Of a stretch of DNA of 64,000 bases, positions 5,622 through 29,785 are shown piece by piece. Location: assembly GCA_045652815.1 (NCBI GenBank), contig JAZOLH010000037.1:691-64690 (forward strand), in the 5' to 3' direction. Under the pieces are notes generated by a model. It saw nothing but the letters and a program-made list of their open reading frames with translations, ran no database searches and had not been told where the DNA came from. This DNA comes from Clostridia bacterium (GTDB lineage Bacteria; Bacillota; Clostridia; UBA1381; UBA9506). The first letter of the stretch is position 1, and each line of letters opens with the position of its first letter. A program made the translations under genes and the position numbers.

Positions 5622-6728
5622 ATGAATATGATGGGGATTATTTTTTCGAACATATATGATGAGCGTTTGGGCGAAATTGCGCGGCACAGAACGCTTGCAT
5701 CCATTCCCTTTGGTGCTCGTTACCGCCTGATTGATTTTGTGCTGTCGGGTATGGTAAATGCAGGCGTTACCAATGTTGGCGTGATTACCAAGCAGAACTA
5801 TCAATCGCTCATGGACCATTTGGGTAGCGGTAAGCCCTGGGATTTGGATAGAAAGGTGGACGGTCTTTTTATCCTGCCGCCCTTTGGCACAGGGCAGAAA
5901 AACATCTATCGTGGTAAAATTGAGGCCCTTTGGGGTGCCAGACGGTTTTTGGAACGCTCTGACGAAGAATATGTGCTTTTGGCGGATGCCAATGTGATTT
6001 GTAACATTGACTATCGGGCTATGCTCAAAGAGCACGTTGCATCCGGTGCCGACATCAGTATGATTACCAAAAAAGAGACCATATCGGGCTATGGCGACAG
6101 TCGGGATTTGGTGGTGCGTACGGAACAAACGGGGCGTGTGCGAGAGGTGTTATTGCATTTCGGTGTGCCGGGTGTGGAAAACGTCAGCATCGGGATGTAT
6201 ATCACAAAACGCCGGTTTTTACTTGATTTGCTCTCCGAGGCTTATTCTTACAGTTTAGTGGATTTTGAGCGGGAGATTTTGCAGGCAAAATGCGGATTGC
6301 TCCAGATTCAAAGTCTTGAATTTAAAGGGGAAATTCTGCGAATTTCCTGCCCGACCAGTTATTTTCGTGCCAATATGGCGCTGCTTGATCAAAACATCCG
6401 TGATGAGATGTTTGCAGGTTCTGTTTATACCAAGATTTTAGATGAAGTGCCCACCCGTTACCATAGCGGCTCTCAGGTTTCCAATTGCCTGCTGGCCGAT
6501 GGCTGTGATATTTTCGGCGAGGCAGACCATTCCGTCATTTTTCGCAATGTGCATATCGGCAAGGGGGCTAGAGTGAAGAACTGCATTTTGATGCAGGATA
6601 CCTATATTGAGGATGGCGCAAGCCTTGAATATGCCATTTGTGATAAAAATGTGCGCATCACAGCAGGGCGGCTTTTATCGGGTGCGCCTGCCCATCAGAT
6701 TATTATGACCAAGGGAAAGGTGGTGTAA
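5622..6728 (+). CDS. glgD: Glucose-1-phosphate adenylyltransferase GlgD subunit
   Basis: GlgC paralogue lacking the GGxGxRL motif, in the Firmicutes glgC-glgD position. RBS AAGGAGG. Confidence 0.88.
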   Translation: MNMMGIIFSNIYDERLGEIARHRTLASIPFGARYRLIDFVLSGMVNAGVTNVGVITKQNYQSLMDHLGSGKPWDLDRKVDGLFILPPFGTGQKNIYRGKIEALWGARRFLERSDEEYVLLADANVICNIDYRAMLKEHVASGADISMITKKETISGYGDSRDLVVRTEQTGRVREVLLHFGVPGVENVSIGMYITKRRFLLDLLSEAYSYSLVDFEREILQAKCGLLQIQSLEFKGEILRISCPTSYFRANMALLDQNIRDEMFAGSVYTKILDEVPTRYHSGSQVSNCLLADGCDIFGEADHSVIFRNVHIGKGARVKNCILMQDTYIEDGASLEYAICDKNVRITAGRLLSGAPAHQIIMTKGKVV

Positions 6729-6730
6729 GG

Positions 6731-8152
6731 ATGAGGATTCTGTTTGCGTCGGCAGAGGCGGCGCCTTTTGCTAAAATCGGCGGTTTGGGTGATGTGGCTT
6801 ACGCGCTGCCGCGCGCCCTGGCAAAAAGCGGCGAAGAGGCGGCGGTTGTGATGCCGCTTTATAAGCAGATTAAAGAGGCAGAGGGGGAGAATCTGACCTT
6901 TCTTTGCGATTTTACGCTGCCACTTTCTTGGCGGCAACTTTACTGCGGTGTGTTTTATAAGAAAGTGGGCGATGTGACCTACTTTTTTATTGATAACGAA
7001 TATTATTTTATGCGGGAGTCTGTCTATGGTCAGTTTGATGACGGGGAGAGGTTTGCTTTTTTCTGCAAGGCGGTTTTGGAGATGCTTTGGCATATTGATT
7101 TTTGCCCTGATGTGATTCACGCAAACGACTGGCAATGCGGACTCATTCCGCTTTTTTTGAATGTGTTTTACCGCACAGAAGAACGATTTTCCAAGATTAG
7201 AACCCTGTTTACCATTCACAACGTGGAATATCAGGGCACCTTTCCCCGAGGTTTTGCAGGTGAGGTTTTAGGGTTTTCTGAAGAAACTATGCCCGATTGC
7301 ATCTGGAACGGGGACGTGAACTGTCTGTATGCAGGTATCCGTGCGGCAAACAGGGTGACAACTGTTTCAAAAACCTATGCAGAGGAACTGAAAACTGCCT
7401 TTTATGGCAGGGGATTAGACAGCGTTTTTAATGAAGAAGCCCACAAATTTTGCGGGGTGATTAACGGGATTGATATGGATCTTTTTAATCCTCATACAGA
7501 TGAGCATCTGTTCCATCGTTATGATGTGAAAACTATGGCAGGCAAGAAAATCGGCAAGCGCAGATTACGTGAAATGCTGGGTCTTGAACAGGAGGAAGAA
7601 GTGCCGATTTTTGGTATGGTCAGCCGATTGGTGGAGCATAAGGGTTTGTCGTTGGTTGAATTTGTGCGCCACGAACTCTTAGAGCGCCCTTTGCAGCTGG
7701 TTGTGCTCGGCACGGGCGACTGGCACTTTGAAGATATGTTTCGTGCGCTCGCCGCAGACTATCCGGGCAAGGTGAGCGCCAATATTTGTTACAGTACAGA
7801 CCTTGCATCGAAAATCTACGCGGCATCGGATTTCTTTTTGATGCCCTCAAAAAGCGAGCCCTGTGGGCTTTCTCAAATGATTGCCATGCGCTATGGTGCT
7901 ATTCCCATCGTTCGTGAAACGGGCGGTCTTTATGATACGGTTTCGCCCATCAATATCGAAACGGGCGAAGGGCAGGGTTTTACCTTTCACACCTACAACG
8001 CTCACGATATGCTGGGGGCGGTGGACAGAGCGCTTAACTTTTATTATGAGAATAAAACAGGGCTAAAAAAGGTCATCCGCAACAATATGGAAGCGGATTT
8101 TAGTTGGCACAAAGCAGCGGGAGACTATCTTTCCCTTTACCAGTCCATATAA
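6731..8152 (+). CDS. glgA: Glycogen synthase (ADP-glucose type)
   Basis: N-terminal KIGGLGDV motif and GT5 architecture. 473 aa. Confidence 0.93.
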   Translation: MRILFASAEAAPFAKIGGLGDVAYALPRALAKSGEEAAVVMPLYKQIKEAEGENLTFLCDFTLPLSWRQLYCGVFYKKVGDVTYFFIDNEYYFMRESVYGQFDDGERFAFFCKAVLEMLWHIDFCPDVIHANDWQCGLIPLFLNVFYRTEERFSKIRTLFTIHNVEYQGTFPRGFAGEVLGFSEETMPDCIWNGDVNCLYAGIRAANRVTTVSKTYAEELKTAFYGRGLDSVFNEEAHKFCGVINGIDMDLFNPHTDEHLFHRYDVKTMAGKKIGKRRLREMLGLEQEEEVPIFGMVSRLVEHKGLSLVEFVRHELLERPLQLVVLGTGDWHFEDMFRALAADYPGKVSANICYSTDLASKIYAASDFFLMPSKSEPCGLSQMIAMRYGAIPIVRETGGLYDTVSPINIETGEGQGFTFHTYNAHDMLGAVDRALNFYYENKTGLKKVIRNNMEADFSWHKAAGDYLSLYQSI

Positions 8153-21913: not shown

Positions 21914-21965
21914 AACAGTAGAGGAAAATAGTATTGTTGTCCACATATTTTAAAGGGTGATTGTT

Positions 21966-24900
21966 ATGAAAAGAAAGTTTTTCTGCTTTGTTAGTCTATG
22001 TCTTAGTTTTCTTATGATGCTATCTTTTGTGCCGATGGCGAGCGCAGAAACTGAGATGCAAGCGCAAGAAGTTTCTGTAACAGAACCAAACTGTTGCGAT
22101 GAAACGGTTTTTGTAAAAGGTCTTCTTTTAAATGCTATTTTAGAAGAGCAGGCAAGCATAGATTTGACTGTATTTTCGCTCACAGGAGAAGAAGCAGAGA
22201 TGCTTCTGCTTGATGTTGTAAACGAAAATGAAAACAGCATTAAAAGACTGGCAGATTACAGCATTTCTGCCGATGAAAACGGTCTTTTCATCTATTTTGA
22301 GTACGCTGAACCCACCGTTTCCTTTTTCGCCACCAGAGCGAACAACACAGAAATTGAAAAAGAAAAACAAAGAATCCTCTCCTGTGTTGATGAATCTATG
22401 TCTGATATGGAAAAAGCGCTGGTTGTGCACGATTATATGGTTTTGAATTATGAGTACGATGAGACCTATTCCATTTACAGCGCAGATGGTATGTTTGAAC
22501 ATAAAACGGGCGTTTGTCAGGCCTATGCAGAGGCATTTAAAGAAATTATGACGGAACTGGGGATTCCTTGCCAGCTTGCCAGCAGCAGAGCTATGAATCA
22601 TGCTTGGAATCTGGTTAAAATTGATGGTAGTTGGTACCACGTGGATGTTACCTGGGATGATCCCGTACCCGACAGGCTGGGCAGAGTCAGACACGTGTTC
22701 TTCCTGCTCAGTGATGATGCAATTTCCGACCCTGCCTATTACCGCAGACCTCATTATGATTGGGTGGCTTCCAATGCGGCAACCAATGACCGCTTCGACT
22801 ATTCCTTCTGGTATGATGTTGATAGCGCCATTGTCGCAGCAGAAGGAAACTGGTATTATATTAAACCCGACGACTATAACTATGACAGTAGTGGTTATAT
22901 TGTAAAGAAAAACATTGCAACTGAAGCGGAAACCAATCTGTACGAAATCGATACAGTGTGGAATGTATGGGATGAGCCCTATAGCTACTGGATTGGTTGC
23001 TTTTCCAGTTTGGGATTATATGAAGGCAGACTCTATTTCAACACCCCGCAGGAGATAAAGAGCATCACTCTCAGCGGAAGAAGTCCCAAAACAGTTTACG
23101 AACCAAACACATCAACAGGCTATATCTTCGGTTTCGTGTTAAATGGAACAACGATTACCTATGGTTTGTCAAAATCGCCTAATGATGGGATAGAAAGCAC
23201 AGGAAAGTGTACGGTTTCAGGTACAGCGGTTATTCCTGTGACAGGTGTTTCTCTGAATCAAACATCCGTTACCTTGCTGAAAGACGAAACGACAAGATTG
23301 ATCGCAACGGTTCGGCCGAGCAATGCAAGCAATAAGAAAGTTCTCTGGACTTCTTCCAACAAGAAGGTTGCAACCGTTGATGAAAACGGTGTTGTAACAG
23401 CGAAATCGGCAGGCATGGCAAACATCAGAGTTACCACGGAAGATGGCGATGCAACTGCACTTTGCAAAGTCACCGTTATGCGTAAAATGGATGTGGCAAT
23501 CGAAGGGGAAAGTGCAGTTTCTCTGGGTAAGACAATAAACTTAACAGGCTACGCATATTATGAAGAAAATGGCAGAATAGTGAAAACAAGCGATGCTATC
23601 GAATGGAGTAGTTCTGATGTGTCTGTTGCTACTGTTTCAGGTGGTAAGGTAACAGGCGTGGGTATTGGAACGGCCACAATCACAGCACGTATTGCGGGTA
23701 CCGATATTTATGAAGAATTTGAAGTGAGTGTTGCAGCACCTGTTACAAGTCTGAAATTTGCATCAACTAAAATGACGGCCTATGTTGGCAATCGCTTTTC
23801 ATTGTTCTATGAGTTAAATATAGCACCTTCTGAGCATACCGATACAATTGAATGGACATCATCTGATGAAACTGTTGCACGGGTCAACCAATACGGCGTT
23901 GTAACACCGATTGCAACAGGTACTGCCAAAATTACTGCAAAAGCTGTTGCGGGTAACAAAACCGCCACGGTGACCGTGACAGTTGCTCGCGAGCCGGAAG
24001 GCATCGTTATTGAAGGTGCTACAGCTGTTGCACAGGGCAAGAGCATCACCTTGAAAGCATATGCTTATTACGAAGAAAACGGTAAGGTTGTTAAGACGAA
24101 GGATACAATTAGTTGGATGAGTTCCGATCATTTTGTCGCAACCGTTTCTAATGGTAAGGTAACCGGTAAAAATGCCGGTATTGCCATTATTACAGCATAC
24201 CTTGCAGGTACAGACATAGAAGCAACCTTTGAAGTGAATGTTGCCGTTCCCGTTAAAACTCTGAAATTTGCATCTACCAAAGCAACGGTTTATGTGGGTC
24301 ATGAACTTGACCTTTCTGAAACCCTGACAGTTTCTCCTTTCGATAATACAGATGATATTATCTGGACATCTTCCAAGGAAAGTGTAGCCGTTGTTGACGA
24401 AAATGGTGTTGTAACACCGATTGCAACAGGTAGTGCTAAGATTACCGCAAAAGCTGTTGCTGGAGGTAAAACCGCATCTGTTACCGTTACAGTTGCTCGT
24501 GAGCCGGAAGGCATTGTGATTACCGGCGATTCTGCTGTTGCACAGGGTAAGAGCATCACCTTAAAAGCCTATGCTTATTATATGGAAAATGGCAAAGAAG
24601 TTAAGACGAAAGATGTTATCAGTTGGATGAGTTCTGATGAATCCGTTGCTACTGTTTCCAAAGGTAAGGTAACCGGTAAGGGTGCCGGCATTGCAACCAT
24701 TCGTGCATACATCGATGGCACTGAGATTGCAGCATCCTTTGATGTGAATGTTGCTGTTCCCGTTAAAACCTTGAAATTTGCATCTACCAAGGCGACTGTT
24801 TACGAAGACGGTGTTATCGACCTTTCTGAAACTCTGACAATTGCACCCTTTGACAACACAGATGACATCCTCTGGACGTCTTCTAACACAAGTGTTGCCA

Positions 24901-25523
24901 CCGTTGATGCAAACGGTGTTGTCACCGCAATCAGCAAAGGTACTGCTAAAATTACAGCTAATGCTGTTGCAGGTAAGAAAAAAGCGACAGTTACCGTGAC
25001 TGTTGCCCGTATGCCCGAAGGCATTGATGTGACGGGTAATAATGCACTGGCAGTTGGCAAGTATGTAACCTTAAAAGCGTATGCGTACTATGAAGAAAAC
25101 GGTAAGGTTGTTAAAACCAAAGATGTTATCCGTTGGGAATCCTCTGATGAAAGCGTTGCAACTGTTACCGATAAAGGTAAAGTAACTGCTAAAGGCGATG
25201 GTGTTGCCTATATCCGTGCCTATATCGCAGGAACAGGTGTTGAAGAAATTTTTGAAATGCATGTTGTTGTTCCGGCGAAAACCGTTAAACTGTCTTCCAC
25301 AAAACTGTCGGCTTCGGTTGGTGATGTTCTGGATTTAACAAACCTGCTGACCGTTACACCGGAAGAACATACCGATGTTATCATCTGGGCATCATCGAAA
25401 ACATCAGTGGCGACGGTGACGGAAGATGGCGTTGTGACCATTGTTGGCACCGGAACAGCCAAAATTACGGTTAAGGCTGTTGGCGGAAATAAATCTGCAT
25501 CGGTGACAGTTACGGTTAAATAA
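21966..25523 (+). CDS. Secreted transglutaminase-like cysteine protease-domain protein with nine Big_2 (bacterial Ig-like group 2) domains
   Basis: Signal peptide (MKRKFFCFVSLCLSFLMMLSFVPMASA). Cys-His-Asp core (GVCQAYAEAF...NHAWNLV...HVDVTWDD). One single Big_2 domain followed by four double-Big_2 units. No LPXTG, SLH or C-terminal TM segment. Confidence 0.85.
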   Translation: MKRKFFCFVSLCLSFLMMLSFVPMASAETEMQAQEVSVTEPNCCDETVFVKGLLLNAILEEQASIDLTVFSLTGEEAEMLLLDVVNENENSIKRLADYSISADENGLFIYFEYAEPTVSFFATRANNTEIEKEKQRILSCVDESMSDMEKALVVHDYMVLNYEYDETYSIYSADGMFEHKTGVCQAYAEAFKEIMTELGIPCQLASSRAMNHAWNLVKIDGSWYHVDVTWDDPVPDRLGRVRHVFFLLSDDAISDPAYYRRPHYDWVASNAATNDRFDYSFWYDVDSAIVAAEGNWYYIKPDDYNYDSSGYIVKKNIATEAETNLYEIDTVWNVWDEPYSYWIGCFSSLGLYEGRLYFNTPQEIKSITLSGRSPKTVYEPNTSTGYIFGFVLNGTTITYGLSKSPNDGIESTGKCTVSGTAVIPVTGVSLNQTSVTLLKDETTRLIATVRPSNASNKKVLWTSSNKKVATVDENGVVTAKSAGMANIRVTTEDGDATALCKVTVMRKMDVAIEGESAVSLGKTINLTGYAYYEENGRIVKTSDAIEWSSSDVSVATVSGGKVTGVGIGTATITARIAGTDIYEEFEVSVAAPVTSLKFASTKMTAYVGNRFSLFYELNIAPSEHTDTIEWTSSDETVARVNQYGVVTPIATGTAKITAKAVAGNKTATVTVTVAREPEGIVIEGATAVAQGKSITLKAYAYYEENGKVVKTKDTISWMSSDHFVATVSNGKVTGKNAGIAIITAYLAGTDIEATFEVNVAVPVKTLKFASTKATVYVGHELDLSETLTVSPFDNTDDIIWTSSKESVAVVDENGVVTPIATGSAKITAKAVAGGKTASVTVTVAREPEGIVITGDSAVAQGKSITLKAYAYYMENGKEVKTKDVISWMSSDESVATVSKGKVTGKGAGIATIRAYIDGTEIAASFDVNVAVPVKTLKFASTKATVYEDGVIDLSETLTIAPFDNTDDILWTSSNTSVATVDANGVVTAISKGTAKITANAVAGKKKATVTVTVARMPEGIDVTGNNALAVGKYVTLKAYAYYEENGKVVKTKDVIRWESSDESVATVTDKGKVTAKGDGVAYIRAYIAGTGVEEIFEMHVVVPAKTVKLSSTKLSASVGDVLDLTNLLTVTPEEHTDVIIWASSKTSVATVTEDGVVTIVGTGTAKITVKAVGGNKSASVTVTVK
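23478..25520 (+). repeat. Four in-frame tandem repeats of 510 bp (170 aa, two Big_2 domains each)
   Basis: Unit boundaries at 23478, 23988, 24498 and 25008, each exactly 510 nt apart. Units share strings such as REPEGIVI, AVAQGKSITLKAYAYY and NVAVPVKTLKFASTKATVY. Confidence 0.9.
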
Positions 25524-25536
25524 GTATTAAACATAG

Positions 25537-25568
25537 AAGAGCCACCGCGTTTGCGGTGGCTCTTTTTT
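25537..25568. terminator. Bidirectional intrinsic terminator (copy 2 of the identical 32-nt element)
   Basis: Same 32 nt as 21832..21863. Sits between the convergent Big_2 gene and the Cys-rich ORF. Confidence 0.88.
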
Positions 25569-25573
25569 ATCTT

Positions 25574-25804
25574 TTAGCAATGACAGTGACAGCCGGAGCC
25601 GGTGGTAGCCAGATAATCTTCTAACAGACATTCGGCACGATGAGCGGCTTCCTCTGCACACTGAGCAGCCTTTTTGGCTTCGCAAGCAGCGGCTTCGGCG
25701 CGGCGTGCTGCTTCGCAGGCACACTGAGCAGCGGCTCTGGCCTCGCGAACGGCTTCCTTGATTGCAGATGTGTTTGTTGTCTGGTTGTTACAGCAGTTAA
25801 ACAT
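25574..25804 (-). CDS. Hypothetical 76-aa Cys/Ala-rich helical protein (10 Cys, C-terminal CHCHC)
   Basis: GGGAGGA RBS 7 nt before ATG 25804. Sequence is MFNCCNNQTTNTSAIKEAVREARAAAQCACEAARRAEAAACEAKKAAQCAEEAAHRAECLLEDYLATTGSGCHCHC. Has its own promoter-like element and terminator. Confidence 0.6.
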   Translation of the reverse strand: MFNCCNNQTTNTSAIKEAVREARAAAQCACEAARRAEAAACEAKKAAQCAEEAAHRAECLLEDYLATTGSGCHCHC

Positions 25805-25848
25805 AAAAGTTCCTCCCAATTGATGAATAGGGGATATATCCTCAGTTT

Positions 25849-25878
25849 TAGTATATGCTTGTCTGCGGTTATAGTGAC
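25849..25878 (-). promoter_or_regulatory. Candidate sigmaK-type promoter (GTCAC, 16 nt, CATATACTA)
   Basis: Minus-strand sequence gtCACtataaccgcagacaagCATAtacTA matches AC-16/17-CATAnnnTA, 45 nt upstream of the Cys-rich ORF start. Confidence 0.45.
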
Positions 25879-25910
25879 AAAAAAGGAGAGCAGAAATCTG
25901 CTCTCCTTTT
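25879..25910 (-). terminator. Intrinsic terminator of csp
   Basis: Stem GGAGAGCAG, loop aaat, stem CTGCTCTCC, followed on the minus strand by a T-run. Confidence 0.8.
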
Positions 25911-25912
25911 TA

Positions 25913-26113
25913 TTATGCAGGATATACATTCACCGCTTGTTTTCCCTTTGGACTATCTTCTATTTCAAAGGTCACCCTTTGACCTTCGGGCAGAGTTTTA
26001 AATCCTTCGGATATAATAGCGGAGTAGTGGACGAATATATCTTCTCCCGAATCCGCGGCAATAAACCCGTAACCTTTTTCATTATTAAACCATTTCACTG
26101 TACCGGTATTCAT
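25913..26113 (-). CDS. csp: Cold-shock protein (CspA family)
   Basis: [18 protein letters not shown] with RNP1/RNP2 motifs. AAGGAG RBS 9 nt before ATG 26113; the start at 26122 has no spacing for an RBS. Confidence 0.93.
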
Positions 26114-26143
26114 TATAGACATCTCCTTTGTGTTTCGTTATTT

Positions 26144-28450: not shown

Positions 28451-29134
28451 TTATCGGATGATTCTTCTTGCAGCATAGTAACAATCGTTGTAATAACCGC
28501 TTACGATGCTTGTGTATTTAACAACATCGCCTGTCTGGGGAGAGTGAATCAGCATACCGTCGCCAACATAAATACCAACGTGATGAACGTATGTATTACC
28601 AGCGCGTTTAAACAGAACCAAGTCGCCGGGGCGCAGTTCGTTTTTGTTAACGGGGATACCGTTTGCCAGCTGGTCGTGTGCTACACGATTTAAAGTGTAA
28701 CCCATCTGACGGTAAACGAAAGATGTGAAACCGGAGCAGTCAAAGCCGGAGGGAGAAGAACCACCGTATACATAGGGCGTTCCCAGATACTGCTTTGCAA
28801 TCTGCACGATTCTGTTGCCGCCGGTAAACTGACCACGGGCAGCCACATCTTCGGGACGAATGCTCACATAATCGGCACAGATGAAAGCGGTTTTGCCGCC
28901 GCCAAGACCGATTTTATACCAGTTATTAACGCGAGCATAAACATCCATTGTGATGCCGGCATCAACACGGTCAACGATTTCAAAGTTTGTGCCTGCGCCG
29001 GAGCGGATGTTAACAGAATAAGCTGTAACAACACCGATGCAAGGGTAAGATTCTGCACTGACAACCGGGGCAGAAAGGCTTAAAACAAGCGCTAAAACTG
29101 CAACCAGCACAGCCAGTTTCTTCTGTATATGCAT
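28451..29134 (-). CDS. Secreted SH3-domain + NlpC/P60 (C40) peptidoglycan endopeptidase
   Basis: Signal peptide MHIQKKLAVLVAVLALVLSLSAPVVSA, an SH3b-like segment, the catalytic DCSGF motif and HHVGIYVG. GGAGGAAC RBS before ATG 29134. Confidence 0.88.
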   Translation of the reverse strand: MHIQKKLAVLVAVLALVLSLSAPVVSAESYPCIGVVTAYSVNIRSGAGTNFEIVDRVDAGITMDVYARVNNWYKIGLGGGKTAFICADYVSIRPEDVAARGQFTGGNRIVQIAKQYLGTPYVYGGSSPSGFDCSGFTSFVYRQMGYTLNRVAHDQLANGIPVNKNELRPGDLVLFKRAGNTYVHHVGIYVGDGMLIHSPQTGDVVKYTSIVSGYYNDCYYAARRIIR

Positions 29135-29350
29135 AATAAATGTTCCTCCAAAAATCTTTTGTAAAACAATATTACAATGTTCATTATACTCGAAAATAAC
29201 AAAAAAGTCAACCGTTTTTAAAACTTTTTTAACAATTTCGTAGCAATTGTAACATTTTTGGCCCGAAATCACGGTTAAAACGAGAGCACAGTCCGTTTTA
29301 TAGGACAGGTTGAATGTTATACTTAAAATATCAAAAAGGAGGAGATTTTG

Positions 29351-29785
29351 ATGAGACGTCGAAGTAAATATGGGACAGATAAGTCCGTTGAAACACTGGT
29401 GGGATTTTTGGCACTGATCGGATTGCCGATATACATTATGGTGCTTTATCCGATTGTTTTCTGGGTTCTGCTTGTGCTTGTTCTGATTGGTGTTGCGGGC
29501 GGGATTGCCTATTATATTAAGAAACATTCCGCCAAGGTTCAACCTGTGGGAGTGGCAGCGTTTGACGACGAGTTTGATGATGAATTTGGCGACGATGAGG
29601 ATACTGCTAAGGGCGTTTCCTTTTTTGATTGGGGAGAGTCGGAGAAAAAACATAACGGCAGATGTGACGGCGATTGTGCCAACTGTCCGCCACATTATGG
29701 CTATCGTCATGGCAGATGGTATTATGGTCACGACCATATAGAAGGTTGCGAATTCGGCGGTAACCGCGGTGGCGGTGGTATATAA
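29351..29785 (+). CDS. Hypothetical small membrane protein with an acidic linker and a Cys/His/Gly-rich C-terminus
   Basis: AGGAGGAG RBS 6 nt before ATG 29351. Two predicted TM helices, then DDEFDDEFGDDED, then CDGDCANCPPHYGYRHGRWYYGHDHIEGC...GGGG. Confidence 0.55.
   Translation: MRRRSKYGTDKSVETLVGFLALIGLPIYIMVLYPIVFWVLLVLVLIGVAGGIAYYIKKHSAKVQPVGVAAFDDEFDDEFGDDEDTAKGVSFFDWGESEKKHNGRCDGDCANCPPHYGYRHGRWYYGHDHIEGCEFGGNRGGGGI

What the first reader, a model, noticed from the sequence alone, without database searches (positions are those of the whole stretch)
25574..25878. 76-aa Cys/Ala-rich helical ORF ending in CHCHC, with a sigmaK-type promoter
Seen in sequence: the ORF has a strong RBS (GGGAGGA, 7 nt, ATG) and is bracketed by its own promoter-like element and a terminator.

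The product MFNCCNNQTTNTSAIKEAVREARAAAQCACEAARRAEAAACEAKKAAQCAEEAAHRAECLLEDYLATTGSGCHCHC has 10 Cys and 21 Ala in 76 residues. It contains an internal DNA/protein repeat (GCACACTGAGCAGC occurs twice, giving AAQCACEA and AAQCAEEA). Local GC is clearly higher than in the flanks.

Upstream on the minus strand is gtCAC, 16 nt, then CATAtacTA. This matches the B. subtilis sigmaK consensus AC-16/17-CATAnnnTA (established knowledge).

Inference: this is a late mother-cell product, for example a disulfide-crosslinked spore coat or crust component or a metal-binding peptide. I recognise no family for it.
Basis: partly seen in the sequence, partly recalled or inferred. Interest (0 to 1): 0.6.

Follow-up and report, generated by a model that had tools for sequence, protein, structure and literature searches.

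The report
Cysteine-capped alanine-zipper sporulation protein
This is a real, stand-alone gene for a small rod-shaped, cysteine-studded protein, found only in one family of small-genome spore-forming gut-type bacteria, that is probably made late in spore formation and built into the spore's outer shell.

Summary
The ORF at 25804..25574 (-) encodes 76 aa with 10 Cys and 21 Ala. It has a strong RBS, a terminator of its own, and the csp gene upstream ends at a separate terminator.

It is a real gene. In related genomes dN/dS is 0.03-0.50. The family has no Pfam or NCBIfam model and is confined to one bacterial family: 25 of 54 genomes there, 0 of 184 in three sister families. Only 15 hits turned up among 1.84 billion representative proteins.

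All 26 loci examined carry AC-N16-CATA(T/G)(A/T)nT(G/A), about 45-70 nt before the ATG. In this genome the sigmaK marker gene dpaA has the same GCAC-type -35. The sigmaE marker genes spoIVA, spoIIM, yabP and a dacB-like gene have ATA-type -35 boxes. The genes spo0A, sigK, spoIIID and spoIVA are all present.

The protein is one continuous helix with an unbroken heptad register. Positions a, d and e are about 72% Ala, and helix length changes only in steps of 7 residues. Of the 114 helix Cys, 111 lie at outward positions, and both tails are Cys-rich.

Best reading (about 0.5): a late mother-cell, self-associating alanine-zipper rod that is disulfide-cross-linked into the spore envelope. Expression, oligomer state and location are all untested. 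A conserved 5'-UTR hairpin (21 of 26 loci) is an added finding.

The parts
25880..25911 (-). Terminator of the upstream csp gene. It insulates the ORF from csp read-through.
   Evidence: 14-bp stem-loop of -21.5 kcal/mol, z = -6.7, followed by UUUUUU.
25874..25878 (-). -35 element GTCAC. The key AC dinucleotide is at 25875-25874.
   Evidence: AC lies exactly 16 nt upstream of CATA in 26 of 26 family loci, and the scripts did not impose this.
25849..25857 (-). -10 element CATATACTA, of the mother-cell sigma type.
   Evidence: CATATA is present in 25 of 26 loci and CATAGT in 1.
25829..25844 (-). Degenerate copy of the family's 5'-UTR hairpin (TGAGGATATATCCCCT). In this copy the CCCCU stretch can pair with the RBS instead.
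   Evidence: local hairpin only -2.0 kcal/mol. The MFE fold of the whole leader (-6.7) pairs CCCCUAU with GGGAGG. In 21 of 26 loci a hairpin of -3 kcal/mol or better sits here.
25811..25817 (-). Ribosome-binding site GGGAGGA.
   Evidence: GGAGG is conserved 6-12 nt before the ATG in the homologues.
25574..25804 (-). Coding sequence of 76 aa plus stop: N-tail with a CC pair (residues 1-14), a helix whose heptad register runs over residues 15-65, and the C-tail GSGCHCHC.
25537..25564 (-). Rho-independent terminator, bidirectional and shared with the convergent Big_2-repeat gene that ends at 25523.

Best explanation
The ORF is a genuine monocistronic gene. It belongs to an undescribed, lineage-restricted family of small proteins (76-129 aa in the loci read).

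Transcription (inferred): RNA polymerase carrying the late mother-cell sigma factor sigmaK reads it from a conserved AC-N16-CATATAnT(G/A) promoter. In most family members the transcript begins with a short conserved hairpin. That hairpin most likely protects the 5' end and lengthens mRNA life, or tunes access to the RBS.

Protein (shown by models and alignment): it has no signal peptide. It is one long alpha-helix with an unbroken heptad repeat in which positions a, d and e are almost always Ala, an alanine-zipper stripe. The helix Cys sit at the outward b, c, f and g positions. The helix is capped by a short N-tail with a CC motif and a C-tail with CxC or CC motifs.

Mechanism (inferred): the helices pack through the Ala stripe into tight coiled-coil rods in the reducing mother-cell cytoplasm and deposit on the developing spore. 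When the mother cell lyses and thiols oxidise, the surface and terminal Cys lock the rods to each other and to other Cys-rich envelope proteins by disulfides. That would make the protein a structural cross-linker of the coat or outermost spore layer.

Shown versus inferred: shown are the gene, its purifying selection, the conserved promoter type, the helix register and the Cys placement. Inferred are sigmaK dependence, oligomerisation, spore location and disulfide cross-linking.
For: Real gene:
- The frame is open and the ATG start, with the N-terminal motif M-x-N-C-C, is conserved in homologues.
- dN/dS is 0.026 for the closest pair (dN 0.016, dS 0.62). It is 0.09-0.50 in the other 32 of 55 pairs for which NG86 gave a value.

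sigmaK-type promoter:
- AC lies 16 nt upstream of CATA in 26 of 26 loci from four genera.
- In this genome dpaA, a sigmaK gene in B. subtilis by established knowledge, is preceded by GCACC-N-CATATTATG.
- spoIVA has GTATA at -35. spoIIM, yabP, a dacB-like S11 peptidase and an M23 peptidase have GTCATA.
- sigK scores 301.5 bits against a cut-off of 298.65. spoIIID, spoIVA and spo0A are also present.
- PMC3789822 states that sigmaE and sigmaK promoters share the -10 box and differ by ATA against AC at -35.

Stand-alone unit: the gene has its own terminators. Its neighbours differ between loci: gyrB in 5 of 12, a transketolase-type gene in 3 of 12, others elsewhere.

Rod shape: AF2 gives a single helix over residues 12-68 (pLDDT 75). 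For a 116-aa homologue it gives residues 12-90, with 68 residues above pLDDT 90. The register is unbroken in 22 of 22 sequences. The register segment is 51, 58, 65 or 72 residues long, and a, d and e are 72-73% Ala.

Cys placement: 111 of 114 helix Cys are at b, c, f or g. Every one of the 22 sequences also has 1-4 Cys in the N-tail and 2-8 in the C-tail.

General principle: Cys-rich, self-assembling, disulfide-stabilised proteins of unrelated folds build spore envelopes in Bacilli and Clostridia (abstract of 10.64898/2026.09.03.749163).

Hairpin: present in 21 of 26 loci. 94.4% of cells are paired, 2 of 6 pairs show double (compensatory) changes, and 3 cells are G-U. G-U pairs favour an RNA structure over a DNA palindrome.
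Against: - No expression, proteomic or localisation data exist. No sequencing run could be listed.
- The promoter motif is low in information and is not enriched genome-wide.
- Mother-cell sigmaE and sigmaK promoters overlap in specificity. cotJA, which is sigmaE-dependent in B. subtilis (recalled), carries the same CAC-type -35 here. In C. difficile, however, the cotJB2-cotD operon is sigmaK-dependent.
- The family is missing from most sporulating relatives. Genus g7 has spoIVA in 21 of 21 genomes but this gene in only 1 of 21. It is therefore dispensable for sporulation as such.
- Oligomerisation is untested.
- An all-Ala core is a weak hydrophobic driver, so the helix might instead dock onto another protein.
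- The hairpin is weak in the window's own copy (-2.0 kcal/mol) and absent in 4 of 5 genus-g3 loci read. The transcription start is unmapped, so whether the hairpin is truly 5'-terminal is unknown.
Confidence: 0.5

Rival explanations
1. A thiolate metal-binding or metal-buffering peptide (Zn, Cu(I), Fe or Ni) made in the mother cell. It would use the CC, CHCHC, GCGC or DCDC tails, and perhaps the helix Cys, either to load metal into the spore or onto coat enzymes, or to detoxify metal.
For: Cys makes up 13% of the protein. The tails have Cys/His motifs: CHCHC here, and CGC...DCDC or CCCD in homologues. The architecture, a coiled coil plus a flexible Cys/His tail, recalls metallochaperones such as CooJ (recalled, not tested).
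Against: His is not conserved in the tails. The helix Cys are outward-facing rather than forming a core metal site: 111 of 114 lie at b, c, f or g. No metal transporter or metalloenzyme is a conserved neighbour. No metal-binding family was hit.
Confidence: 0.15
2. The same gene and protein, but transcribed by sigmaE (early mother cell) or by both sigmaE and sigmaK. The protein would then act as a small morphogenetic adaptor that docks through its Ala stripe onto another coat or engulfment protein, and would not be a bulk structural component.
For: sigmaE and sigmaK share the -10 box. cotJA and ytxC in this genome carry similar CAC-type -35 boxes. An all-Ala interface suits tight packing against a partner helix.
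Against: All 26 loci have AC, and none has the ATA or TCATA seen at this genome's spoIVA, spoIIM and yabP promoters. No conserved neighbour suggests a partner.
Confidence: 0.15
3. The precursor of a ribosomally made, Cys-modified peptide (sactipeptide or ranthipeptide type), or of a secreted bacteriocin.
For: It is small and Cys-rich, with a variable C-terminal Cys-rich tail following a conserved helical 'leader-like' part.
Against: No radical-SAM enzyme, protease or ABC exporter sits beside it. In the 12 loci scanned, the neighbours are housekeeping genes and they differ between loci. There is no leader cleavage motif and no signal peptide. The heptad-quantised helix points to a structural role.
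Confidence: 0.03
4. A spurious ORF in a GC-rich spacer, not a gene.
For: Short ORFs with low-complexity products often arise by chance. An overlapping 221-aa ORF exists on the other strand.
Against: There is purifying selection. The start, RBS, promoter and terminator are conserved in 26 loci. Indels in the helix occur only in multiples of 7 codons.
Confidence: 0.02

Closest known systems
Cysteine-rich spore-envelope proteins (B. subtilis CotY/CotZ, B. cereus-group ExsY/CotY, C. difficile CdeC/CdeM, C. sporogenes CsxA/CsxC)
   Same: Cys-rich and without a signal peptide. They are made in the mother cell late in sporulation and are thought to self-assemble and then be locked by cooperative disulfides. 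The principle is stated in the abstract of 10.64898/2026.09.03.749163; PMC6101409 and PMC7333573 were seen as listing and abstract only.
   Different: There is no sequence relation: no Pfam or NCBIfam hit. The protein is much smaller (76 aa) and is a single alanine-zipper helix rather than a globular or SPOCS-domain fold. Self-assembly and spore location are not shown here.
Lpp/OprI alanine-zipper lipoproteins (PF11839, NF040598)
   Same: Ala-rich heptad helix. These are the only, sub-threshold, profile hits: 16.3 bits against a 23.1 cut-off, and 17.6 against 43. It probably works like them in using small residues for tight helix packing.
   Different: There is no lipoprotein signal peptide or lipobox. 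The organism has Gram-positive-type sporulation genes. Ala occupies three heptad positions (a, d, e). It has Cys at outward positions and Cys caps. The scores are below the cut-offs, so it is not a member.
sigmaK regulon promoters of B. subtilis and C. difficile
   Same: AC at -35, a 16-nt spacer, and a CATATAnT-type -10 box. PMC3789822 gives AC plus CATATAAT for sigK P2.
   Different: Dependence on sigmaK is not demonstrated in this organism. The ninth base is G rather than A in most family members.
5' mRNA stabilisers of Bacillus (aprE leader stem-loop, cryIIIA STAB-SD, ermC)
   Same: A short stem-loop and an SD-like purine tract (GAGGA) near the predicted 5' end, ahead of a strong RBS. [quoted passage not shown]
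   Different: The transcription start is unmapped and mRNA half-life is unmeasured. The 3' arm (UCCUC) is also an anti-SD that could mask the real RBS, so the element could repress translation instead.

Membership tests
Lpp/OprI alanine-zipper lipoprotein (PF11839 / NF040598) | Profile score above the curated cut-off | tested here: not met
   PF11839 scored 16.3 bits against 23.1. NF040598 scored 17.6 against 43.
Lpp/OprI alanine-zipper lipoprotein (PF11839 / NF040598) | N-terminal lipoprotein signal peptide with a lipobox Cys | tested here: not met
   The N-terminus is MFNCCNNQTTNTS, with no hydrophobic signal segment. No signal-peptide predictor was run; this was read directly from the sequence.
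Lpp/OprI alanine-zipper lipoprotein (PF11839 / NF040598) | Heptad repeat with Ala in core positions | tested here: met
   Positions a, d and e are 72-73% Ala over 22 sequences, with an unbroken register.
sigmaK-dependent promoter | AC at -35, a 16-17 nt spacer, CATAnnnTA-like -10 box | tested here: met
   GTCAC-16 nt-CATATACTA in the window. 26 of 26 loci have AC-N16-CATA.
sigmaK-dependent promoter | -35 box distinct from the sigmaE type (ATA) used by early mother-cell genes of the same genome | tested here: met
   dpaA has GCACC. spoIVA has GTATA. spoIIM, yabP, a dacB-like gene and an M23 peptidase gene have GTCATA.
sigmaK-dependent promoter | sigK gene present in the genome | tested here: met
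   TIGR02846 scored 301.5 bits against a 298.65 cut-off, with no internal stops.
sigmaK-dependent promoter | Transcription lost in a sigK mutant, with a mapped start site | not testable with these tools
   No sequencing run was listed.
Cys-rich spore coat/exosporium structural proteins (CotY/Z, ExsY, CdeC/M, CsxA) | Sequence or domain homology to a known member | tested here: not met
   No Pfam, NCBIfam, PDB-sequence or ESM-Atlas match.
Cys-rich spore coat/exosporium structural proteins (CotY/Z, ExsY, CdeC/M, CsxA) | High Cys content, no signal peptide | tested here: met
   10 of 76 residues are Cys, and 9-17 Cys per protein in 22 homologues.
Cys-rich spore coat/exosporium structural proteins (CotY/Z, ExsY, CdeC/M, CsxA) | Self-assembly into ordered arrays, and presence in spores | not testable with these tools
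No proteomics is at hand.
RiPP precursor (sacti-/ranthipeptide type) | Adjacent maturase (radical SAM), protease or exporter genes | tested here: not met
   32 flanking ORFs in 12 loci were scanned. None is a maturase, and the neighbours vary.
Copper storage proteins (Csp1/Csp3, Cys-lined four-helix bundle; features recalled) | Cys pointing into the core of a four-helix bundle | tested here: not met
   The models show a single helix. Only 3 of 114 helix Cys are at the core positions a, d or e. No such family appeared in the Pfam scan at E <= 10.

The most novel reading that the evidence does not exclude
The family is a new kind of spore-envelope building block: a disulfide-capped alanine-zipper rod that acts as a molecular spacer or ruler.

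Its length has been tuned in evolution by adding or removing whole heptads. The register segment is 51, 58, 65 or 72 residues long, roughly 7.5 to 11 nm as an ideal helix. The Cys clusters at both ends and along the outer face staple the rods end-to-end and side-to-side. Rod length would then set the lattice spacing or thickness of an outer spore layer in these small-genome Oscillospirales-type bacteria.

A conserved 5'-terminal hairpin gives the mRNA the long life needed in the dying mother cell.
Probability: 0.15. Interest if true: 0.7.

Novelty: new variant of a known kind. Interest (0 to 1): 0.45.

Why it matters
Spore envelopes of gut anaerobes outside the model species are almost unknown at the molecular level, and their outer-layer proteins evolve too fast for homology searches.

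This locus gives a clean, testable example. It is a lineage-specific, unannotated small protein. Its regulation can be read from a promoter conserved in 26 of 26 loci. Its architecture (Ala-stripe helix, outward Cys, Cys caps, heptad-quantised length) suggests a simple physical mechanism for disulfide-locked assembly.

If confirmed, it would add a minimal single-helix fold to the list of unrelated folds that converge on Cys-rich, self-assembling, disulfide-stabilised spore layers. It would also show that sigmaE and sigmaK promoter types can be told apart by sequence in uncultured small-genome Clostridia.

If the protein turns out not to be in spores, it is just one more orphan small protein.

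Tried and rejected
- Homologue search, word-indexed: only 2 proteins at E <= 0.01 among 52 candidates.
- Profile search of 1.84 billion representatives: 15 hits at E <= 0.001. One of them (P0014, 717 aa) looks like an unrelated Ala/Asn repeat protein, and one (P0015) has a divergent C-terminal half.
The 3-row alignment returned one low-identity match (27%) in a Bryobacterales contig, judged a compositional match and not used.
- PDB sequence search: best E-value 0.14, nothing meaningful.
- ESM Atlas: no usable hit.
The oligomer state is therefore open.
- The look-up of sequencing runs: none was listed and no RNA holder was listed.
- The search of earlier findings: nothing on this genome.
- Fold search was not run, because a single helix has no discriminating fold.
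- Genome-wide weight-matrix scan for the promoter: no enrichment over shuffled sequence, so it could not define a regulon. A regex screen (CATAnnnT before an RBS-led ORF) gave 157 mostly noisy candidates, of which 15 were annotated.
- Link between gene presence and sporulation capacity: rejected. spoIVA is found in 52 of 55 genomes of the family, whether or not they have this gene.
- yabG was not found in this 91%-complete genome.
- Whole-leader MAFFT alignments misplaced the two hairpins with 5-nt loops. The pair count was therefore made on 10 of 12 loci, with L010 and L012 dropped.
- Literature: searches found no description of an Ala/Cys-rich single-helix sporulation protein. This covers only the open-access library searched.

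Full report
**1. The observation**

The minus-strand ORF runs from ATG 25804 to TAA 25574 and gives exactly the 76-residue product quoted. It has 10 Cys and 21 Ala.

- GGGAGGA (25817-25811) lies 6 nt before the ATG.
- A 12-bp GC-rich stem-loop (25564-25537, -23.7 kcal/mol, z = -7.1) follows the stop.
- The upstream csp gene (25913-26122) ends at its own strong terminator followed by a T6 run (-21.5 kcal/mol, z = -6.7). The ORF is therefore a separate transcription unit.
- GTCAC, 16 nt, CATATACTA sits at 25878-25849.
- The 14-nt repeat occurs twice, with 0 expected by chance. The copies are 63 nt apart, which is three heptads of protein.
- Local GC is 0.565 against 0.451 genome-wide, as expected from Ala and Cys codons.
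- The bare promoter pattern is not statistically remarkable in one genome. There are 56 matches to AC-N16/17-CATAnnnTA, and a family-derived weight matrix found no excess over shuffled sequence.

**2. It is a real gene of a small, lineage-restricted family**

Homologues are scarce:

- A word-indexed search of 5.8 billion proteins found two relatives.
- A profile search of 1.84 billion representatives found 15 at E <= 0.001.
- NCBI calls one of them 'hypothetical protein' from Ruminococcaceae/Oscillospiraceae MAGs.

Whole-genome six-frame searches show where the family occurs:

| Group | Genomes with the gene |
|---|---|
| Own genus g1, first search | 17 of 19 |
| Own genus g1, better profile | 18 of 19 |
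| Genus g3 | 5 of 8 |
| Genus g5 | 1 of 1 |
| Genus g7 | 1 of 21 |
| Three other families of the order (f4 0/164, f3 0/19, f2 0/1) | 0 of 184 |

The genome holds one copy.

Selection on the frame is clear. Among 11 full-length genes (the contig-truncated L005 was dropped), the closest pair has dN 0.016, dS 0.62 and a ratio of 0.026. The other 32 of 55 pairs with a computable ratio give 0.09-0.50. The remaining 22 pairs were saturated at synonymous sites.

The neighbours differ between loci. gyrB is next to it in 5 of 12 loci, a transketolase-type gene in 3 of 12, and csp and a Big_2-repeat protein here. The gene therefore travels alone, with no conserved partner.

**3. Regulation**

In all 12 loci first read and all 14 fetched later, which include genera g3, g5 and g7, CATA(T/G)(A/T)nT(G/A) lies about 45-70 nt before the ATG. 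An AC dinucleotide sits exactly 16 nt upstream of it. The scripts searched only for the -10 box, so the AC was not imposed.

The genome is a sporulator:

- spo0A scores 334.5 bits.
- sigK scores 301.5 bits against a 298.65 cut-off, and a second sporulation-type sigma scores 252.9.
- spoIVA scores 776.9 bits.
- spoIIID scores 118.1 bits.

Within this genome the two mother-cell promoter types can be told apart:

- dpaA is preceded by GCACC-N-CATATTATG.
- spoIVA is preceded by GTATA-N-CATATACTG.
- spoIIM, yabP, a dacB-like S11 peptidase and an M23 peptidase are preceded by GTCATA-type -35 boxes.

This matches the rule reported for C. difficile and B. subtilis: the same -10 box, with ATA for sigmaE and AC for sigmaK (PMC3789822, passages read). 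That dpaA is sigmaK-dependent and that spoIVA, spoIIM and yabP are sigmaE-dependent is established B. subtilis knowledge, recalled here. I conclude the promoter is of sigmaK type, with about 0.8 confidence. Actual dependence is untested.

**4. A conserved 5'-UTR hairpin (additional finding)**

A 5-8-bp stem begins 2-5 nt after the -10 nonamer. It is typically UGAGGA-N4-UCCUCA.

- It is present at -3 kcal/mol or better in 21 of 26 loci.
- It is absent in four g3 loci and weak in the window's copy (-2.0 kcal/mol).
- On the 10 of 12 loci with a 4-nt loop, 94.4% of cells pair, against 41-56% for slid partners.
- Two of six pairs show changes on both sides, and three cells are G-U. More distant loci keep a stem with a different sequence, such as GGGA/UCCC and GUAGGC/GCCUGC.
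- G-U pairs argue for RNA structure rather than a DNA operator.

By analogy with Bacillus 5' stabilisers (PMC3997798), I read it as protection of the mRNA 5' end. Its 3' arm is also an anti-SD, so translational masking is the alternative. In the window's copy the CCCCU stretch pairs with the RBS in the MFE fold.

**5. The protein**

No Pfam or NCBIfam family reaches its threshold. The only hits are sub-threshold alanine-zipper (Lpp/OprI) matches.

AlphaFold2 gives one continuous helix. It covers residues 12-68 (pLDDT 75). In a 116-aa homologue it covers residues 12-90, with 68 residues above pLDDT 90. There is no hairpin.

Across 22 sequences the heptad register never breaks. The register segment is 51, 58, 65 or 72 residues long, so all indels are whole heptads. 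Residue use by heptad position:

| Position | Commonest residues |
|---|---|
| a | Ala 73%, then L, Y, V, I |
| d | Ala 72%, then L, S, M, I |
| e | Ala 72%, then V, L, I, S |
| b, c, f, g | charged residues or Cys |

Of the 114 Cys in the helix, 111 are at b, c, f or g and 3 are at a, d or e. Every protein also has 1-4 Cys in the 13-15-residue N-tail and 2-8 in the C-tail. There is no signal peptide (read directly from the sequence).

**6. Mechanism proposed**

All of this section is inference from section 5 and from the general principle that spore envelopes are built from Cys-rich self-assembling proteins locked by cooperative disulfides (abstract of 10.64898/2026.09.03.749163).

- A three-position Ala stripe allows very close helix-helix packing with more than one neighbour.
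- The protein would form coiled-coil rods in the reducing mother cell.
- It would then be cross-linked through its outward and terminal thiols once the mother cell lyses.

**7. Rivals**

- Metal-binding peptide: 0.15.
- Early or dual sigmaE expression, acting as an adaptor: 0.15.
- RiPP precursor: 0.03.
- Spurious ORF: 0.02.

**8. Evidence against or limiting**

- The gene is not needed for sporulation as such, because most spoIVA-positive g7 genomes lack it.
- No transcript, proteome or assembly data could be obtained.
- The transcription start is unmapped.

**9. Verdict**

The sigmaK-type promoter is supported by comparative evidence. The spore-envelope role is plausible but unproven.

This is an undescribed family that fits a known functional class with a new, minimal architecture. 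I rate it a new variant of a known kind, of moderate interest.

Noticed in passing
Own genome, contig C29:2324-7525 (outside the window); loci L041, L042: dpaA (spoVFA) is split. Residues 2-250 match at C29:2324-3067 and residues 244-287 at C29:6810-6941, just before dpaB (6929-7525). The 3.7-kb insert carries a serine-recombinase-like ORF (5900-6763, minus strand) preceded by a mother-cell-type CATAGACTA -10 box, plus two large membrane-protein ORFs. It looks like a skin-like intervening element that is excised in the mother cell.
   Followed up: partly
Relatives G032:C4:150737-163994; also G007 and G009: spoIVA matches come in pieces. In G032, residues 1-403 and 398-492 lie about 12 kb apart. 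In G007 and G009 only residues 1-403 were matched. This hints at intervening elements in spoIVA in some relatives.
   Followed up: no
Own genome C34:1580-1759 (-), locus L034:4-183: A second orphan Cys-rich small ORF of 60 aa with 11 Cys. It has a strong RBS and the same CAC-N16-CATATAATG promoter type. It has no Pfam or NCBIfam hit. Only 2 weak matches turned up in 19 same-genus genomes.
   Followed up: partly
Promoter spacers of 26 family loci; window 25858-25863: GAC(A/G) sits at the same spacer position (7th-10th base after AC) in 10 of 26 loci from four genera. The window instead has GACAAG abutting the -10 box. A GACA core recalls SpoIIID sites (recalled, not tested). SpoIIID is encoded in the genome.
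   Followed up: partly
Own genome C67:15917-16177 (cotJA), C30:22461-23400 (ytxC), C50:14579-14802, C12:4124-4500, C57:21296-21622: Other ORFs preceded by CAC-type -35 plus a CATA -10 box: CotJA, YtxC, a 48-aa membrane peptide, a Se/S-carrier-like 87-aa protein, and FeoA. These are candidate late mother-cell genes of this organism.
   Followed up: partly
window 21957-25523 (+): A convergent 1188-aa ORF with an N-terminal hydrophobic segment and at least four Big_2 Ig-like repeats in its last 481 residues. It shares the bidirectional terminator with the small gene.
   Followed up: partly
window 29348-29785 (+): A 145-aa ORF with a predicted membrane segment and a Cys/His/Gly-rich C-terminal tail (…CDGDCANCPPHYGYRHGRWYYGHDHIEGC…). 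It lies opposite an SH3/NlpC-P60-like ORF (28451-29737, -). It was seen only in the ORF list.
   Followed up: no
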